DNA from: Octopus vulgaris
Taxonomy: Eukaryota
Assembly: GCA_951406725.2 (NCBI GenBank)
Contig: OX597816.1
Location: 76,942,001-77,006,000, forward strand
Length of the DNA stretch: 64,000 bases
Direction: 5' to 3'
Shown here: positions 24,746-60,468 of the stretch, one piece after another
Position numbering within the stretch: position 1 is the first letter of the stretch
Layout of the letters: the number at the start of each line of letters is the position of its first letter
Program-made: the position numbers and the translations under genes
The notes under the pieces: generated by a model
The model's input: the letters and a program-made list of their open reading frames with translations, nothing else
Databases searched by the model: none
What the model was told of the DNA's origin: nothing

Positions 24746-24750
<5 letters not shown>

Positions 24751-25109
24751 AAATACAGTGTGCATTTAAACACATAAGAGATTACCATAATAGAACATCA
24801 GACTCACTAGAAAGAGCAGTTAAACTCCAAACCACCAATAGTTGTACTTCTGAAAGAGAAAGAGAAATAAAAACGTTTACCCTATCGTTTTCATTTCTCT
24901 TTCTCTTTCAGAATTACAATTGTTGGTGGTTTGGAGTTTAACTGCTCTTTCTAGTGAGTCAGATGTCCTATTATGGTCATCTCTTATGTGTTTAAATGCA
25001 CACTGTATTTTTCTATGAATAATATATAGTCTATTCACTATTCATTCCTTCTCGCTAGACCACTGGTAGCGGAGAATTTTTCTAAAAAATTTTGCTACCC
25101 TGAGATTCA

Positions 25110-25113
<4 letters not shown>
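24746..25113 (+). mobile_element. Fold-back insertion related to the 3' half of the 491-bp retrozyme unit
   Basis: Inverted arms 24746-24875 and 24887-25016 with centre AAAACGTTTACCCTATCGTTTT; 3' tail CTCGCTAGACCACTGGTAGC...TTTGCTACCCTGAGATTCATTAA then (TA)n. Confidence 0.8.
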
Positions 25114-40258: not shown

Positions 40259-40265
<7 letters not shown>

Positions 40266-40562
40266 ACATATAAGGGATGGCCATAATAGGACATCCGACT
40301 CACTAGAAAGAGAAATGGAAAGAGAAATAAAAACGTTTACCCTAGGATAGGGTAAACGTTTTTATTTCACCTTCCATTTCAGAATTACAACTATTAGTGG
40401 TTTGGAGTTTAACTGCTCTTTCTAGTGAGTCGGATGTCCTATTATGGCCATCCCTTATATGTTTGAATGTATATTACATAGTCTATTGACTATTTTTTCT
40501 TTCTCACTTGACCACTGGTAGTGGATAATTTTTCTAGAATTTTTTGCTACCCTAAAATTTTA

Positions 40563-40567
<5 letters not shown>
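40259..40567 (+). mobile_element. Fold-back insertion related to the 491-bp unit (same subfamily as 24746)
   Basis: Centre AAAAACGTTTACCCTA-GGA-TAGGGTAAACGTTTTT; arms extend to 40259 and ~40470; tail CTCACTTGACCACTGGTAGT..TTTGCTACCC; (TA)n on both sides. Confidence 0.8.
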
Positions 40568-45423: not shown

Positions 45424-46671
45424 CGAGGGGCGTTCAATAAGTAATGCCCCTGACCCACTTCCCATAGCAATAGAGCAACGAAACTTGGCACAGTTATTGG
45501 ACTTTTTCTACGTATTGGACTTTTTCTCAGAGTAACGCATTTCTCCCATTGTTTGATGCAGCTCTGGAGACCGTTTTTGTAGAAGACCCCAGCTTGGTCC
45601 TCCAACCACGACGTGACTTCAGAAATCAAGGCTACATCATCTGGGAAACGCTTTACTTTCAAAAATAACTTCATGGCTGAGAAGAGGTGAAAATCAGAGG
45701 GTGCAAGGTCAGGAGATTAGGGAGGAGTTCATAGCCGCACGCCTGTGCTTCTGATCTGGCGACACGCGAGTTGTGGACCGGAGCGTTGTCCTGCTGAAGG
45801 AGGATGCCTTTGCTGATCTTGCCCCGCCTCTTGATTTTGATAGCTTCTCTTAATTTCCTCAAAAGTGAAGCATAATAGGCTCCTGTAATTGTGGTACCCT
45901 TTGCCAGGAAATCTGGCATCACTACTCCGTCCTGGTCCCAGAAGGTTGTGAGCATGACCTTGCCAGCGGAGGGCTGCACCCTTGCCTTCTTTGGAGGAGG
46001 TGAGTCACGGTGATTCCACTGCATTGACTGGGCTTTGGTCTCTGGATCATAGTGATGGACACAGGTTTCATCCTGTGTAATCAGTCTTTTGAAAAATTTT
46101 GACTCATCTTCTTGGCACATCACCAAATTCATCCTCGAGCACTCGACGCGTTCTTGCTTCTGGAAAGGTGTGAGCAACCTGGGAATCCGTCTGGCAGACA
46201 CCTTTTGAATATGCAAATGGTCATGAATGATAGTTTCCACAGATCCGGTACTAATCTTGACCTCATGGGCTATTTGGCGAATAGTTATGCGTCGATCTTC
46301 CAAAATGGCAGCCTCAACTTGACGGACAGGTGCTTCATCAATGGCAGAAGGGGGGCGACCAGATCTGGGAGCTGTTTCCACAGAATTCTGACCATGTTTG
46401 AATTCACGATGCCAGCGTTTTACAAGGTCATATGATGGGGCATCATCACCATAAGTTACTTTCATTTCATCAAAAGTCTCCCGTGGTGTGCATCCTTTCA
46501 AATACAAAAACAGGATCACTGCTCGACACTCAACAGGCTCCATTTCACACTTGACTCAGTTCAAACACCTGTAAATCAGAAACTACAATTAGTTCAGAGC
46601 TGTAATTTGCCACTTAATCTATAATGATATAAATAATTGCAAGTGGGTCAGGGGCATTACTTATTGAACGC
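45424..46671 (-). mobile_element. Near-complete mariner (DD34D) transposon, ~1.25 kb
   Basis: TIRs (TA)CGAGGGGCGTTCAATAAGTAATGCCCCTGACCCACTT and AAGTGGGTCAGGGGCATTACTTATTGAACGC; the 46641-46671 TIR lacks its terminal 6 bp. Confidence 0.95.
45510..46543 (-). pseudogene. Mariner transposase with a frameshift
   Basis: ORF 46543-45671: HTH, RRIPRLL, ITQDET, QDNAPVH; a ~10-bp deletion removes HPPY; SPDLAPSDFHLF and the C-terminus (QWEKCV) continue in the frame of ORF 45674-45375. Confidence 0.9.
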
Positions 46672-54713: not shown

Positions 54714-55680
54714 TTCTTTCATCACATCTCCCTTTTGAGATTTTCCTTCCAGGGAAGTTTAATATTTCTTCCGTTTAGGCACTACTTCCAACTGTTCTGT
54801 TAGCTTCCTCTTTCTTGTGCCACTACGCATAGGTTCGATTTCTTCTGACGTTGGAACATCAAAGGTGTCATAGAACACTTCTATGCGTATATCTTTTCTT
54901 TTTTCCGTATAACTATTTTTAAGCTGGTTTAAATTTCTTGTGTGTTCCCATGTTCAACTCTTATGTATCTGAAAGCGATCTTTTTCTTCAGTCTTATCAG
55001 CGTCATGTCTTACATTTATAATCCCCAGGCATTCTTCATCCACTGTCAGTAGATTTAATTTTTGGTCCCGTTCTAATTTTGTTAATATGCGGAAACGTAT
55101 ATCAGCATCTTTTCTAGCAGTAACCCGTAAACAACAATTAGACATTTGAACAAATCCGAGGTTAATTCATTTAATTTGAAGTTTCACAATTTCTGTTAAC
55201 GACCCGAGAATAGGTGACGAAATCTTCATCGTCATTTTTAACTAAATTTAAACACTGCCAACAAGTATTGAATAAGGAACTTCTTTCCCTGAAAATTTTC
55301 GATAAAAATTGAATGTTTCATTGAAACAAATCCCACCTGGTTCCTTCGGTAGAATATAATTACAGCATTTTTCGAGTTCGACAGGGGATAACTTTCTTAA
55401 AAGTAGTTGCACCTTCTTTTCGTCATTCCAGTTTTTGGATTTTTCTTTGAAGATTTCTTCGAATCTTCTAAAGTATGCAGAAAAAGTAGTTCCTTCTTCT
55501 GGGTTGTAAATAAATTCTCCAATTGACGTTGCTACGCCGTCTGACGAGAATGAACCTGAAGTTATTTCAGACTTCTTCAACATTACTTCCAATAACTGTT
55601 GATATTGTTGTTGTTGCTGTTGTAGTTAGTGGTGTAACTGAACCACGCAAGCTTCCATGTTAATGATTTTTTTCTTTGAT
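54176..55680 (-). mobile_element. Internally deleted Gypsy LTR retrotransposon relic (gag, pol C-terminus, PPT, 3' LTR)
   Basis: gag EFIYNPEEGTTFSAYFRRFEEIF..DEKKVQLLLRKL..NYILPKEP and DADIRFRILTKLE..EEC; C-terminus IEVFYDTFDVP..PKRKKY*; PPT AAAGGGGGTGA followed by TGT at ~54620; LTR outer boundary uncertain. Confidence 0.75.
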
Positions 55681-56241
55681 TTGAAAAATCAGCAAAAACA
55701 CCAAAATGAAAAAGACAAATGAAAATATACGAAAAAAAAAACGATTAACTACGTACCAATGGTTTCACTTGTTAATATCTACGTATACAAACACGCAGAT
55801 ATCCGCAAGATCGTCAGCGTACGTAGGTAATCGATTTTTTTATTTCGTATAGTTCCATTTGTCTTGTTCATTTTTACATTTTGACGTTTTTGCTGAGATT
55901 TTTTTGGAGAACACATTCTTCGTGGTAATGGCGATTTGACGTCTATGTTTAGCATATTAGGTGTCCACTTTAGTGGTCATTCCTCTTAATTTTGTATGTA
56001 ATACAATTTTTAATCTTCGGATTTTTTATATATGCAAAGCCATTGCTTTTAATTTATTAATATCAATTTCTACCTTTATTATTTAATTTCATATGTATAT
56101 ATATATATATATATACATATCACAATCAAGGAACGGCCATAATAGGCCATTCACCCACTAGAAATAACAGCCAAAAGCTTTAACCGCAAAATAACATTAA
56201 TTCCGTAAACCAGGAGAAAATTGAAAAACATTTACCCTGTA

Positions 56242-56348
56242 ATTTCTTAGACGATGCACCGTTTCATCTACCGTTTAATGGTAAACTAACCTGATTAAAT
56301 TAAATCAAGCCAATCCACCATAGGCCCTTAGACTCATCAGTAAGAAAT
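56242..56348 (-). ncRNA. Type I hammerhead ribozyme, intact
   Basis: Reverse complement of the 57573 motif. Confidence 0.9.
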
Positions 56349-56732
56349 AGCCAAGTCGGAATAGATATTTTTCACGAGGCATTCCTCTTGCTACCTCGGC
56401 AATATCTGACCTAAAATTTTCAAATCGTCGCACTCGCGCCAAATTTATCGGCAGCAAATAAATATAAGCCACCGATTCCATTATGGAACTAACCAGAAAA
56501 TTCATAATTAATCAATATAGGGTGGCAAAAAAAATTTTGTAGAATTCTTTTGCCACCAGCGGCCTAGTGGGAAAAAATTAAATAGTCATAAACCATTTTT
56601 AAGTTCAACATCACAATCAAGGAACGGCCATAATAGGCCATTCACCCACTAGAAATAACAGCCAAAAGCTTTAACCGCAAAATAACATTAATTCCGTAAA
56701 CCAGGAGAAAATTGAAAAACATTTACCCTGTA

Positions 56733-56839
56733 ATTTCTTAGACGATGCACCGTTTCATCTACCGTTTAATGGTAAACTAACCTGATTAAATTAAATCAAG
56801 CCAATCCACCATAGGCCCTTAGACTCATCAGTAAGAAAT
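56733..56839 (-). ncRNA. Type I hammerhead ribozyme, intact
   Basis: Reverse complement of the 57573 motif, 491 bp from the previous copy. Confidence 0.9.
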
Positions 56840-57572
56840 AGCCAAGTCGGAACAGATATTTTTCACGAGGCATTCCTCTTGCTACCTCGGCAATATCTGA
56901 CCTAAAATTTTCAAATCGTCGCACTCGCGCCAAATTTATCGGCAGCAAATAAATATAAGCCACCGATTCCATTACGGAACTAACCAGAAAATTCATAATT
57001 AATCAATATAGGGTGGCAAAAAAAATTTTGTAGAATTCTTTTGCCACCAGCGGCCTAGTGGGAAAAAATTAAATAGTCATAAACCATTTTTAAGTTCAAC
57101 ATCACAATCAAGGAACGGCCATAATAGGCCATTCACCCACTAGAAATAACAGCCAAAAGCTTTAACCGCAAAATAACATTAATTCCGTAAACCAGGAGAA
57201 AATTGAAAAACATTTACCCTGTAATTTCTTAGACGATGCACCGTTTCATCTACCGTTTAATGGTAAACTAACCTGATTAAATTAAAAATGGTTTATGACT
57301 TAAAATGGTTTATGACTTAAAAATGGTTTATGACTATTTAATTTTTTTCCCACTAGGCCGCTGGTGGCAAAAGAATTCTACAAAATTTTTTTTTGCCACC
57401 CTATATTGATTAATTATGAATTTTCTGGTTAGTTCCGTAATGGAATCGGTGGCTTATATTTATTTGCTGCCGATAAATTTGGCGCGAGTGCGACGATTTG
57501 AAAATTTTAGGTCAGATATTGCCGAGGTAGCAAGAGGAATGCCTCGTGAAAAATATCTGTTCCGACTTGGCT

Positions 57573-57679
57573 ATTTCTTACTGATGAGTCTAAGGGCCTA
57601 TGGTGGATTGGCTTGATTTAATTTAATCAGGTTAGTTTACCATTAAATGGTAGATGAAACGGTGCATCGTCTAAGAAAT
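57573..57679 (+). ncRNA. Type I hammerhead ribozyme, intact; predicted cleavage after C57671
   Basis: Stem I ATTTCTTA/TAAGAAAT (8 bp); CTGATGA; stem II GTCTA/TAGAT with inserted 19-bp hairpin; GAAAC; near-palindromic stem III ACGGTGCATCGT; GTC. Confidence 0.92.
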
Positions 57680-58063
57680 TACAGGGTAAATGTTTTTCAA
57701 TTTTCTCCTGGTTTACGGAATTAATGTTATTTTGCGGTTAAAGCTTTTGGCTGTTATTTCTAGTGGGTGAATGGCCTATTATGGCCGTTCCTTGATTGTG
57801 ATGTTGAACTTAAAAATGGTTTATGACTATTTAATTTTTTTCCCACTAGGCCGCTGGTGGCAAAAGAATTCTACAAAATTTTTTTGCCACCCTATATTGA
57901 TTAATTATGAATTTTCTGGTTAGTTCCGTAATGGAATCGGTGGCTTATATTTATTTGCTGCCGATAAATTTGGCGCGAGTGCGACGATTTGAAAATTTTA
58001 GGTCAGATATTGCCGAGGTAGCAAGAGGAATGCCTCGTGAAAAATATCTGTTCCGACTTGGCT

Positions 58064-58170
58064 ATTTCTTACTGATGAGTCTAAGGGCCTATGGTGGATT
58101 GGCTTGATTTAATCTAATCAGGTTAGTTTACCATTAAACGGTAGATGAAACGGTGCATCGTCTAAGAAAT
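58064..58170 (+). ncRNA. Type I hammerhead ribozyme, intact; predicted cleavage after C58162
   Basis: Same motif 491 bp downstream. Confidence 0.92.
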
Positions 58171-59318
58171 TACAGGGTAAATGTTTTTCAATTTTCTCCT
58201 GGTTTACGGAATTAATGTTATTTTGCGGTTAAAGCTTTTGGCTGTTATTTCTAGTGGGTGAATGGCCTATTATGGCCGTTCCTTGATTGTGATGTTGAAC
58301 TTAAAAATGGTTTATGACTATTTAATTTTTTCCCACTAGGCCGCTGGTGGCAAAAGAATTCTACAAAATTTTTTTTTGCCACCCTATATTGATTAATTAT
58401 ATATATATATATATATTGCATATACATATATTGCATATAATATTTAGTTTCATCAGTGTATTATTATAATTACGTTTCTTACAATTTCTATGGCACATTG
58501 TATTGATTCCATATATATTTAACTCCTTAACAGCTAACAGTCTTATTTTACTTACGTCTTTCCCTCGCCTCTCTACCATAACCACACAACCTCCGTTCTG
58601 TGTTCTTTTATTTACTGACATCCACTTAGCTTATCTTTCTCACTGCTGCCTCTATTCATTTCATTTTGAATTAGTATTCTTTTTTCCTATTTCTCCCCTC
58701 ATCTCTATTTCTACTCCACATTTATACGCTCTAAGTACAAACTGTAGACACAAGGTTTTGAATGTTCTCTTTAGTTAGTGAAATCATTTTTTTTTTACTC
58801 TTCGTCTCTAATCATACCTTAACTCCATTTATTAATGTACTTTCACTCAATCACCCTTCACACGCCTTTATCGATCTTTCTTTATATTTAAAAATATTTT
58901 ATGCATAGTGTCATTGAATAGAACCATTTAAGGAACCTTGCATTGTAGAATATATATCAGCAGCTACTCAAATTATTCCTTTCATTCATGATCGTTCTTT
59001 CTACTTATATTTTTAAGATACATATAATTATGTATACTATATACTAATATATACTAAATACTATGATATATACGTGAATATATATTTATACATATGCCTA
59101 AGTTCCTTTCAAAGAATTGGAAAATTCCTTCAATAACCTGCCAATATTTTTTCCAGTCTAATAATGTCAGGTATAAGCGAAATAATTCAGTTGCCCTTTT
59201 ACATATTTCTGAAGACTTTTTTGTTTTTCGTTTAACCTTCCATGCTTTCTATAAGCTTCCTACTCGGTTTCTCGCGTTTCTTCTATCATTCAAATTTAGT
59301 TCGTTATGCTACGTGGTT

Positions 59319-59704: not shown

Positions 59705-59739
<35 letters not shown>

Positions 59740-59744
<5 letters not shown>

Positions 59745-60468
59745 TTAGCTGCTATTTCTACTAAGTTCAGTATGTGGCAAAGTAATTTATTTTACTAAGC
59801 CCTAATTATATAATGTAATATTTTGAATTCGCCTTAAATGGTCCTTTTACATACTGAACACTTGGTGAAATTGATTAATTAATTTTACCCTCAATTGTTG
59901 ATATTATAATTCATTTCTCTCGGTCATACTGCCTCGGTTCTCGCGGTTAAAATATAATGTTTGCTAGATAGACCACGTGGGTGGAATGGGGAGTGCAGAA
60001 TTTTACGCCTGCGCATTTTGAATTTGTTGACACTGTTAGTTGGAGTGGTTCATCTGAAGCGACAAGTTCGCTGATAGGTAAAGTTCCTTCTTTTTAGTGT
60101 TTCCAAATCCAAATTAAGAAATTTTGAGCTTACGAAAGAAATACTGATTTTATTTGGCTAATCTTGAAACGTTGACGTACTCAAACGATCTATGTACTTG
60201 TGATATTTTTCTGTATTTACCCCCAAACCTTCGTGAGCTGTCTGGAGTAAACATTATCTGAGAGAAATTTTCTTTAAGTAGTAGAAATGCTAAGAAAATT
60301 TTTTGGGGCTGCTATTTCTACTAAGTTCAGTATGTGGCAAAGTAATTTATTTTACTAAGCCCTAATTATATAATGTAATATTTTGAATTCGCCTTAAATG
60401 GTCCTTTTACATACTGAACACTTGGTGAAATTGATTAATTAATTTTACCCTCAATTGTTGATGTTATA
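59740..60468 (+). mobile_element. Retrozyme-like element: 560-bp unit plus ~160-bp terminal direct repeat in (TA)n
   Basis: GCTGCTATTTCTACTAAG...TTTTACCCTCAATTGTTGAT at 59748-59902 and 60308-60462, essentially identical. Confidence 0.8.
60123..60185 (+). ncRNA. Type I hammerhead with core G5U substitution
   Basis: TTTGAG-CTTACGA-AAGA...TCTT-GAAAC-GTTGAC-GTA-CTCAAA; stems I, II and III all pair. Confidence 0.7.

What the first reader, a model, noticed from the sequence alone, without database searches (positions are those of the whole stretch)
57588..57655. Giant stem II insertion: 19-bp hairpin with six G.U pairs and no mismatch
Seen: ATGGTGGATTGGCTTGATT / AATCAGGTTAGTTTACCAT (57600-57643) pairs fully only if G.U is allowed; the opposite strand would have six A.C mismatches. 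This fixes the functional strand and indicates structure at the RNA level rather than DNA. Other unit helices are also wobble-rich (ATCGGTGGC/GCTGCCGAT, CGAGGTA/TGCCTCG). Inference: either selection to keep a rod-like fold while avoiding perfect dsRNA, or A-to-I edits fixed by reverse transcription. Coleoid cephalopods are known for very extensive ADAR editing. C-to-T drift is an alternative source of the same pairs.
Basis: partly seen in the sequence, partly recalled or inferred. Interest (0 to 1): 0.72.

Follow-up and report, generated by a model that had tools for sequence, protein, structure and literature searches.

The report
Wobble-rich cap on retrozyme hammerhead
This hairpin is a real side arm of a predicted self-cutting RNA motif in a many-copy jumping repeat, and related repeats mostly carry A-U pairs where it has G·U pairs, so the wobbles likely arose as tolerated A-to-G changes kept by selection on RNA shape, with host RNA editing an unproven extra source.

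Summary
The 19-bp hairpin with six G·U pairs is real (57600-57643; 0 of 500 shuffles reach it) and folds on one strand only. It caps stem II of a type I hammerhead in a 491-bp tandem retrozyme with at least 1,800 units in this genome and Penelope-type two-armed insertions. The scan noted this family before on other DNA. New here is the wobbles' origin. Three sister families show A-U or U-A, never a consensus G-C, at all six positions. Two are polarised A>G on the tree, four only if the root lies outside the A+J clade and on the A/U side. So C-to-T drift is rejected for this hairpin, though it made two of three wobbles in the other helices cited. Changes carried by template RNA keep pairing (A-U>G·U 20 vs U-A>C·A 2), post-insertion mutations do not (5 vs 6): selection on RNA structure. 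A-to-I editing is not shown: no 5'-G depletion, no hyper-edited copy among 459 units, no A>G strand bias between subfamilies. 'No mismatch' holds in only 45 of 134 loci at one pair. No RNA reads were available; cleavage is untested.

The parts
56119..58400 (.). Whole retrozyme insertion: two head-to-head arms of a 491-bp unit, 3' ends outward, between TA-rich microsatellites
   Evidence: TRF period 491; arm map
56119..57286 (-). Left arm, 2.4 units; outer end at unit position 131 (position 1 = first base after the predicted cut), inner end near the hairpin tip; hammerhead cores start at 56831 and 56340 on the minus strand
57282..57335 (+). Inversion junction with three copies of an 18-bp piece
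   Evidence: TRF
57315..58400 (+). Right arm, 2.2 units; outer end at unit position 237
57569..57571 (+). GGC triplet just upstream of stem I; candidate partner of the stem II internal loop (inferred)
   Evidence: GGC with GCC in 190 of 213 loci of four families, GGT with ACC in 2
57574..57580 (+). Hammerhead stem I, 5' strand (pairs with 57672-57678)
   Evidence: sequence differs with pairing kept across families
57581..57587 (+). Hammerhead core CUGAUGA
57588..57592 (+). Stem II base, 5 bp with 57651-57655; first pair G·U in the youngest subfamily, A-U in the other A subfamilies
57593..57599 (+). 5' side of the 7x7 internal loop of stem II (3' side 57644-57650), holds conserved GCC at 57596-57598
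57600..57643 (+). 19-bp capping hairpin with six G·U pairs (the finding)
57656..57671 (+). GAAA core, 4-bp stem III with palindromic UGCA loop, GUC triplet; predicted cut after 57671
58065..58169 (+). Second plus-strand hammerhead copy with the same hairpin
57445..57474 (+).
   Evidence: branch changes, alignment
57523..57546 (+).

Best explanation
The hairpin is a peripheral cap on stem II of a type I hammerhead motif in a tandem non-LTR retrozyme, and its G·U pairs likely arose as A-to-G changes in an A/U-rich ancestral hairpin that were kept because selection on the copied RNA preserves pairing. Shown: anatomy, strand, copy number, A-U or U-A at the homologous pairs of sister families, and a pairing filter that acts on template-borne but not on post-insertion mutations. 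Inferred: the arm began as a slippage-built (TTTAA)-type hairpin; A-U to G·U is nearly free in RNA (about 1 kcal/mol for all six) and two further pairs went on to G-C; the tertiary contact that a normal loop II makes is probably made by the internal loop (GCC with the GGC beside stem I), which would leave the cap free to vary in length and sequence; the RNA would self-cleave into 491-nt monomers and be copied by a Penelope-like reverse transcriptase from two fixed start sites into TA microsatellites. The source of the A-to-G changes is probably ordinary transcription, reverse-transcription and DNA error; editing may add a minority.
For: No subfamily consensus of 21 has G-C at any of the six positions. 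Per locus: family I A-U at pairs 6, 7, 11, 12 in 39, 37, 37, 37 of 39; family B in 19, 20, 19, 18 of 20, and U-A at pair 9 in 17 of 20; family J A-U at pair 6 and A·C at pair 12 in 14 of 14 (4 I and 4 B loci dropped because the anchor pair did not read G-C). Family I has the same 6-nt loop and arm length as A, with one bulge. Pairs 6 and 12 are assigned A>G by parsimony; a non-reversible root test rejects roots in A or J (pSH 0.012 or less), prefers B, and does not reject the central branch (0.14). Template-borne events at paired sites: A-U>G·U 20 vs U-A>C·A 2, against 5 vs 6 among private mutations (Fisher p 0.008); G·U>A-U 11 vs G-C>A·C 11, against 11 vs 41 (p 0.024). Wobbles also revert (11 events at 6 sites), as drift between tolerated pairs predicts. 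Subfamily-level changes in A+J are strand-balanced: A>G 21, T>C 26, G>A 20, C>T 17 of 140. 81 of 94 two-armed insertions have one outer end at 124-140 and the other at 228-247; 88 of 94 have TATA on both flanks, matching the inverted, tailed, TA-targeted structure of Penelope-like insertions (PMC8557442, PMC3846280, passages) and two RT start sites (PMC11167929).
Against: Four of six wobbles (pairs 7, 9, 11, 14) are polarised only under a root in or beside I/B; pair 14 is alignable only to family I. On the locus tree of family A, template-borne A>G exceeds T>C (34 vs 24 of 181 events, p 0.007) and A>G is the only class whose paired rate (20 on 48 sites) is above its unpaired rate (9 on 43; p 0.09), which purifying selection alone does not predict. 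C-G>U·G (9) is not favoured over G-C>A·C (11), which the pairing filter predicts. Events are not independent (11 unique sites behind the 20) and several tests were run. Pairing is predicted, not probed. The GGC/GCC contact rests on 3-5 bp and two compensated loci, and RNAfold can also use these bases in a non-ribozyme fold. The active fold lies 3.9 kcal/mol above the minimum-energy fold. No autonomous partner was searched for.
Confidence: 0.66

Rival explanations
1. ADAR edits paired adenosines of the retrozyme RNA in the germ line and the borrowed reverse transcriptase writes the inosines into new genomic copies as G, so the wobbles are fossil A-to-I edits.
For: All six positions are A/G differences with U kept. 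Pair 6 changed A>G three to four times independently, each time in all units of the insertion or clade (subfamily A1, L045, L211, L288); three of these are in a UAG context. Singleton insertion-wide changes: A>G 11 vs T>C 6 of 53 (p 0.047; the 60 later-fetched loci alone 4 vs 2 of 15, p 0.23), private mutations 16 vs 21 of 252. ADARs mainly edit repeat-derived dsRNA across animals (PMC5625713, passages).
Against: G upstream, strongly depleted at ADAR sites (PMC5625713), is not depleted: 4 of 21, 4 of 15 and 4 of 23 A>G sites against about 23 percent background; pair 12 changed in a GAC context. No hyper-edited unit among 459 (maximum 5 A>G). No strand bias among subfamily-level changes. A>T is as skewed as A>G (28 vs 9 T>A), which editing cannot cause. 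Four origins at one site give p 0.02 after correction; if L045 shares its origin with A1 only three remain.
Confidence: 0.17
2. The wobbles are favoured because they keep the RNA helix while removing the hairpin from both DNA strands, easing cDNA and second-strand synthesis or stabilising the genomic copy against slippage and deletion.
For: With DNA parameters the hairpin folds at -3.3 (plus) and -2.3 (minus) kcal/mol, against about -16 on both strands if the six G were A, while the RNA loses only 1 kcal/mol. Stem II length is 68 nt in 127 of 132 A loci but spreads over 46-58 nt in 24 B loci.
Against: Families I and B with A/U arms spread widely too; B is older and split into subfamilies, which explains length spread. 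Wobbles revert. Arm 5' ends are not depleted in the hairpin: 23 of 249 overall (p 0.82), 16 of 99 long arms (p 0.02, post hoc, if anything enriched).
Confidence: 0.09
3. The wobbles are selected to avoid a perfect duplex and so escape dsRNA sensors, Dicer or ADAR.
For: G·U pairs distort A-form helices (general knowledge, recalled); five wobbles are kept in 132-134 of 135 A loci.
Against: The lineage moved towards a stronger helix; 19 bp is short for dsRNA sensors (recalled); the two-armed insertion itself is a near-perfect inverted repeat of about 1 kb per arm. Retention across A loci is expected from recent common descent.
Confidence: 0.05
4. The six wobbles come from C-to-T decay of G-C pairs in DNA.
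For: C>T did create two wobbles in other helices of the unit; family J has C opposite A at pair 12.
Against: No consensus has G-C at the six positions; G-C occurs in only 4 locus-position cases among about 135 A loci, as rare variants, and in none of the J, I or B loci tallied at five of the six positions.
Confidence: 0.03

Closest known systems
Metazoan non-LTR retrozymes (Cervera and de la Pena 2020, PMC7229834; Li, Clavereau and Pollet 2026, 10.64898/2026.07.22.740005)
   Same: Tandem non-coding units of low GC, one type I hammerhead per unit, highly self-paired predicted monomer, short stem III with palindromic loop, many dispersed arrays.
   Different: Unit 491 nt against about 170-400 nt for invertebrates in the 2020 paper (51-972 bp in the 2026 preprint); stem II is 68 nt with an internal loop and a 19-bp cap instead of about 4 bp with a loop; regular two-armed inverted insertions. 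Expression, cleavage and circles untested here.
Penelope-like elements and their pLTR hammerheads (PMC4209133, PMC8557442, PMC3846280, PMC11167929)
   Same: Head-to-head inverted arms, a tail at one end only, TA-microsatellite or AT-rich targets, two fixed start points of copying.
   Different: No reading frame seen in the unit; tail about 106 nt against 30-40 nt; hammerhead has a real stem III and a much longer stem II than the 7-8 bp helix II of minimal PLE hammerheads.
Pseudoknot-stabilised hammerheads (Perreault et al. 2011, PMC3088659)
   Same: [quoted passage not shown]
   Different: Here the candidate contact is only 3-5 bp, comes from an internal loop of a long stem II, and is untested.
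Compensatory evolution of RNA stems through G·U intermediates (recalled; PMC5381666 seen as abstract only)
   Same: A-U to G·U to G-C path; pairs 13 and 16 completed it between family I and A/J, and one stem III pair likewise.
   Different: Recorded here in dispersed genomic copies, where template-borne and post-insertion mutations can be separated.

Membership tests
Type I hammerhead ribozyme | Core CUGANGA, GAAA and NUH triplet around three helices with stem I open | tested here: met
   (Rfam model matched 1-45 of 45, 22 bits, below gathering)
Type I hammerhead ribozyme | Stems I-III kept by compensatory change | tested here: met
   Stems differ in sequence but stay paired across families A, J, I, B (read by eye; no R-scape statistic)
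Type I hammerhead ribozyme | [quoted passage not shown] | tested here: inconclusive
   GGC/GCC in 190 of 213 loci, GGT/ACC in 2, 21 others
Type I hammerhead ribozyme | Self-cleavage at the NUH site | not testable with these tools
   Needs in vitro transcription
Non-LTR retrozyme | Tandem units with a hammerhead in consecutive units | tested here: met
   Four hammerheads in the window array; 18 units in one array
Non-LTR retrozyme | Short, low-GC, strongly self-paired monomer | tested here: met
   491 nt, z -5.5
Non-LTR retrozyme | No protein-coding frame | tested here: met
   No stop-to-stop frame of 110 aa or more overlaps 56119-58400
Non-LTR retrozyme | Expressed as linear and circular monomer RNA | not tested
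Penelope-like mobilisation | Inverted 5'-truncated arm, tail at one end, TA target | tested here: met
   81 of 94 and 88 of 94 two-armed insertions (49 one-armed and 6 cut loci left out)
Penelope-like mobilisation | Homology to the pLTR of an autonomous RT/GIY-YIG element in the genome | not tested
   No search for the partner was made
ADAR-derived fixed mutations | Sense-strand A>G excess over T>C | tested here: inconclusive
   Absent between subfamilies (21 vs 26), present on the family A locus tree (34 vs 24) but confounded by pairing selection and matched by an A>T excess
ADAR-derived fixed mutations | Depletion of G 5' of the changed A | tested here: not met
   4 of 21, 4 of 15, 4 of 23 against about 23 percent; low power
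ADAR-derived fixed mutations | Clustered (hyper-edited) copies | tested here: not met
   None among 459 family A units
ADAR-derived fixed mutations | RNA-DNA A-to-G mismatches at the same sites | not tested

The most novel reading that the evidence does not exclude
This retrozyme clade is a heritable recorder of RNA editing: ADAR edits its paired adenosines in the germ line, the Penelope-type RT fixes them in new copies, and a slippage-born A/U hairpin was rewritten step by step into a wobble-rich, DNA-silent, RNA-stable cap on a hammerhead whose stem I-II contact has moved to an internal loop.
Probability: 0.17. Interest if true: 0.75.

Novelty: new variant of a known kind. Interest (0 to 1): 0.4.

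Why it matters
The copies separate mutations that passed through the RNA template from those that arose after insertion, so one genome shows selection on a retrozyme's RNA fold directly, and gives a stepwise series (A-U, G·U, G-C) for one helix. It also gives a ready test for whether A-to-I edits can be inherited through retrotransposition: subfamilies that still have A at pair 6 name the site to look at in gonad RNA. If the internal-loop contact is real, it explains how a natural hammerhead tolerates a stem II of 46-78 nt. If editing plays no part, this is ordinary compensatory evolution in a known element class.

Tried and rejected
Rfam at gathering threshold found nothing in the window. A short-stem-II version of this hammerhead was sought: 6 pattern hits, none with homology to the unit. 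MAFFT misaligned the hairpin between A/J and I/B, so the arms were registered without gaps from the base pair upward, with one bulge in family I; B4 was left out of tree and mapping (84 unknown bases), and B5-B7 were used only to pair 8. Two counts typed into tests (unique sites, private mutations) were provisional and are replaced. A first hint of A>G excess in insertion-wide changes (14 vs 7 over all families) kept its ratio but not significance in 60 further loci. ADAR neighbour preference and hyper-editing were looked for and not found. RT stalling at the hairpin is inconclusive (eight ends at position 241 are an artefact of the reference break). Literature searches listed no paper on fixed A-to-I edits in retrozymes or on a long wobble-rich stem II cap; the library lacks most subscription papers and I read no supplements (those of PMC7229834 show more invertebrate hammerheads and could hold a similar arm). 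Host species was not tested.

Full report
Observation. The two arms are at 57600-57618 and 57625-57643 and form 19 consecutive pairs, six of them G·U, around a 6-nt loop. None of 500 dinucleotide shuffles of the unit gave more than 16 bp. As RNA the plus strand folds at -21.7 and the minus strand at -5.3 kcal/mol; as DNA both are weak, -3.3 and -2.3. Six of 19 is not significantly above the unit's other helices (11 of 86, p 0.08).

Context. The span 57588-57655 is stem II of a type I hammerhead: stem I 57574-57580 with 57672-57678, core at 57581, a 5-bp stem II base, a 7x7 internal loop, the hairpin, GAAA at 57656, a 4-bp stem III with a palindromic loop, and GUC ending at 57671. Rfam matches the full Hammerhead_1 model at 22 bits, under its 34-bit cut-off. 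Four copies lie in a 491-bp tandem array, 56119-58400, made of two head-to-head arms between TA repeats. Two non-overlapping exact patterns count 967 and 831 units in G000. Among 149 family A loci, 94 were two-armed and complete; 81 of these end at unit position 124-140 on one side and 228-247 on the other, and 88 have TATA on both flanks. This fits Penelope-like insertions with an inverted arm, a one-sided tail and TA targets (PMC8557442 and PMC3846280, passages read) and two internal RT start sites (PMC11167929, parts 1-2 of 4). The class is the animal non-LTR retrozyme (PMC7229834, passages and parts 2-3 of 6; preprint 10.64898/2026.07.22.740005, parts 1-3 of 5). The scan had already described this family on other DNA.

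Relatives. Searching from them gave family B, and further searches gave families I and J. A tree built without stem II gives ((A, J), (I, B)). A non-reversible model rejects roots in A or J (pSH 0.012 or less), prefers B, and does not reject the central branch (0.14); decay in old consensus sequences could bias this. B and I arms are almost pure A/U and consist of short repeats; I has the same loop and arm length as A with one bulge.

Origin of the six wobbles. None of 21 subfamily consensuses has G-C at pairs 6, 7, 9, 11, 12 or 14. Pair 6 is A-U everywhere except the youngest subfamily and three scattered insertions (G·U in 30 of 134 A loci). Pair 12 is A-U in I and B and A·C in J. Both are mapped as A>G. 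Pairs 7 and 11 are A-U in I and B, pair 9 is U-A in B and one I subfamily, pair 14 is U-A in I; their direction depends on the root. Per-locus tallies agree. Pairs 13 and 16 are G-C type in A and most J but A-U type in I, the end point of an A-U, G·U, G-C path. Pair 5 is a mismatch in 88 of 134 A loci and in J, so the mismatch-free state is recent.

Selection or editing. I split mutations into those shared by all units of an insertion or by a clade (template-borne, assumed to have passed through RNA) and those private to one unit (post-insertion or RT error). At predicted paired sites, template-borne A-U>G·U outnumber U-A>C·A 20 to 2, private ones 5 to 6 (p 0.008); G·U>A-U against G-C>A·C is 11 to 11 template-borne and 11 to 41 private, the latter matching the 12:43 site ratio (p 0.024). 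That is a pairing filter on propagated RNA, and wobbles move both ways. Against the filter being complete, C-G>U·G (9) is not favoured over G-C>A·C (11). For editing: A>G exceeds T>C on the locus tree (34 vs 24, p 0.007), paired A>G is twice the unpaired rate (p 0.09), and pair 6 changed three to four times. Against editing: subfamily-level changes are balanced (21 vs 26), A>T is skewed too (28 vs 9), upstream G is not depleted (the ADAR preference is from PMC5625713, passages), and no hyper-edited unit exists among 459. No RNA reads were obtained, so editing in vivo is open.

How it probably works. Replacing the six G by A changes RNA stability by 1 kcal/mol, so the wobbles are near-neutral for the helix, while the arm as a whole became more stable from I to A. 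A GGC beside stem I and a GCC in the stem II internal loop co-occur in 190 of 213 loci with an intact hammerhead, with GGT/ACC in two. I infer a short stem I-II pairing like the pseudoknots of PMC3088659 (passages and section 7), which would make the hairpin a dispensable cap. The active fold is 3.9 kcal/mol above an alternative that pairs the core with the cut site, and stem III stays palindromic in all families, consistent with dimer-assisted cleavage described for such ribozymes (PMC4209133, part 1 of 4). These steps are inferred.

Verdict. Real feature, known element class, long-stem-II variant already seen by the scan. The wobbles are best read as A-to-G drift under RNA pairing selection (0.66), with fixed A-to-I editing a minority possibility (0.17). 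Eight literature searches listed no report of either the long cap or fixed edits in retrozymes; supplements were not read. Interest 0.4.

Noticed in passing
window 24746-25112 and 40260-40567: Two truncated fold-back insertions of sister family B, lacking the hammerhead; used as seeds to find the outgroup families.
   Followed up: yes
window 55248-55625 (minus strand): 125-aa open stretch matching DUF7083 (E 8.5e-15), probably a broken retrotransposon gag-like fragment (label recalled), about 500 bp from the array.
   Followed up: partly
window 45671-46555 (minus strand): 294-aa mariner-type transposase fragment (Transposase_1, HTH_48).
   Followed up: partly
family A subfamilies A3-A8 (e.g. 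L032, L232): Cleavage triplet is GUA rather than GUC in 75 of 132 A loci, and the stem III loop switches between two palindromes, UGCA and UAUA.
   Followed up: partly
unit position 37 of the A2 consensus (e.g. L134, L211): A second paired site toggles between A-U and G·U, five A>G and two G>A events on the locus tree.
   Followed up: partly
family A, all loci: Private G>A mutations exceed C>T on the sense strand (78 vs 36, 1.5-fold per base, p 0.06), and template-borne A>T exceeds T>A (28 vs 9); unexplained.
   Followed up: no
L241 (G000:C8:30047000-30051600): Six of nine units have turned wobble 11 into a G-C pair by T>C, a within-array step along the compensatory path.
   Followed up: no
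window 59737-59930 and 60300-60465: A duplicated stretch of about 165 bp next to TA repeats, seen by eye; a similar sequence flanks L130.
   Followed up: no
L065 and L067: Two related solo sequences with a hammerhead-like core and a very short stem II, unrelated to this unit.
   Followed up: no
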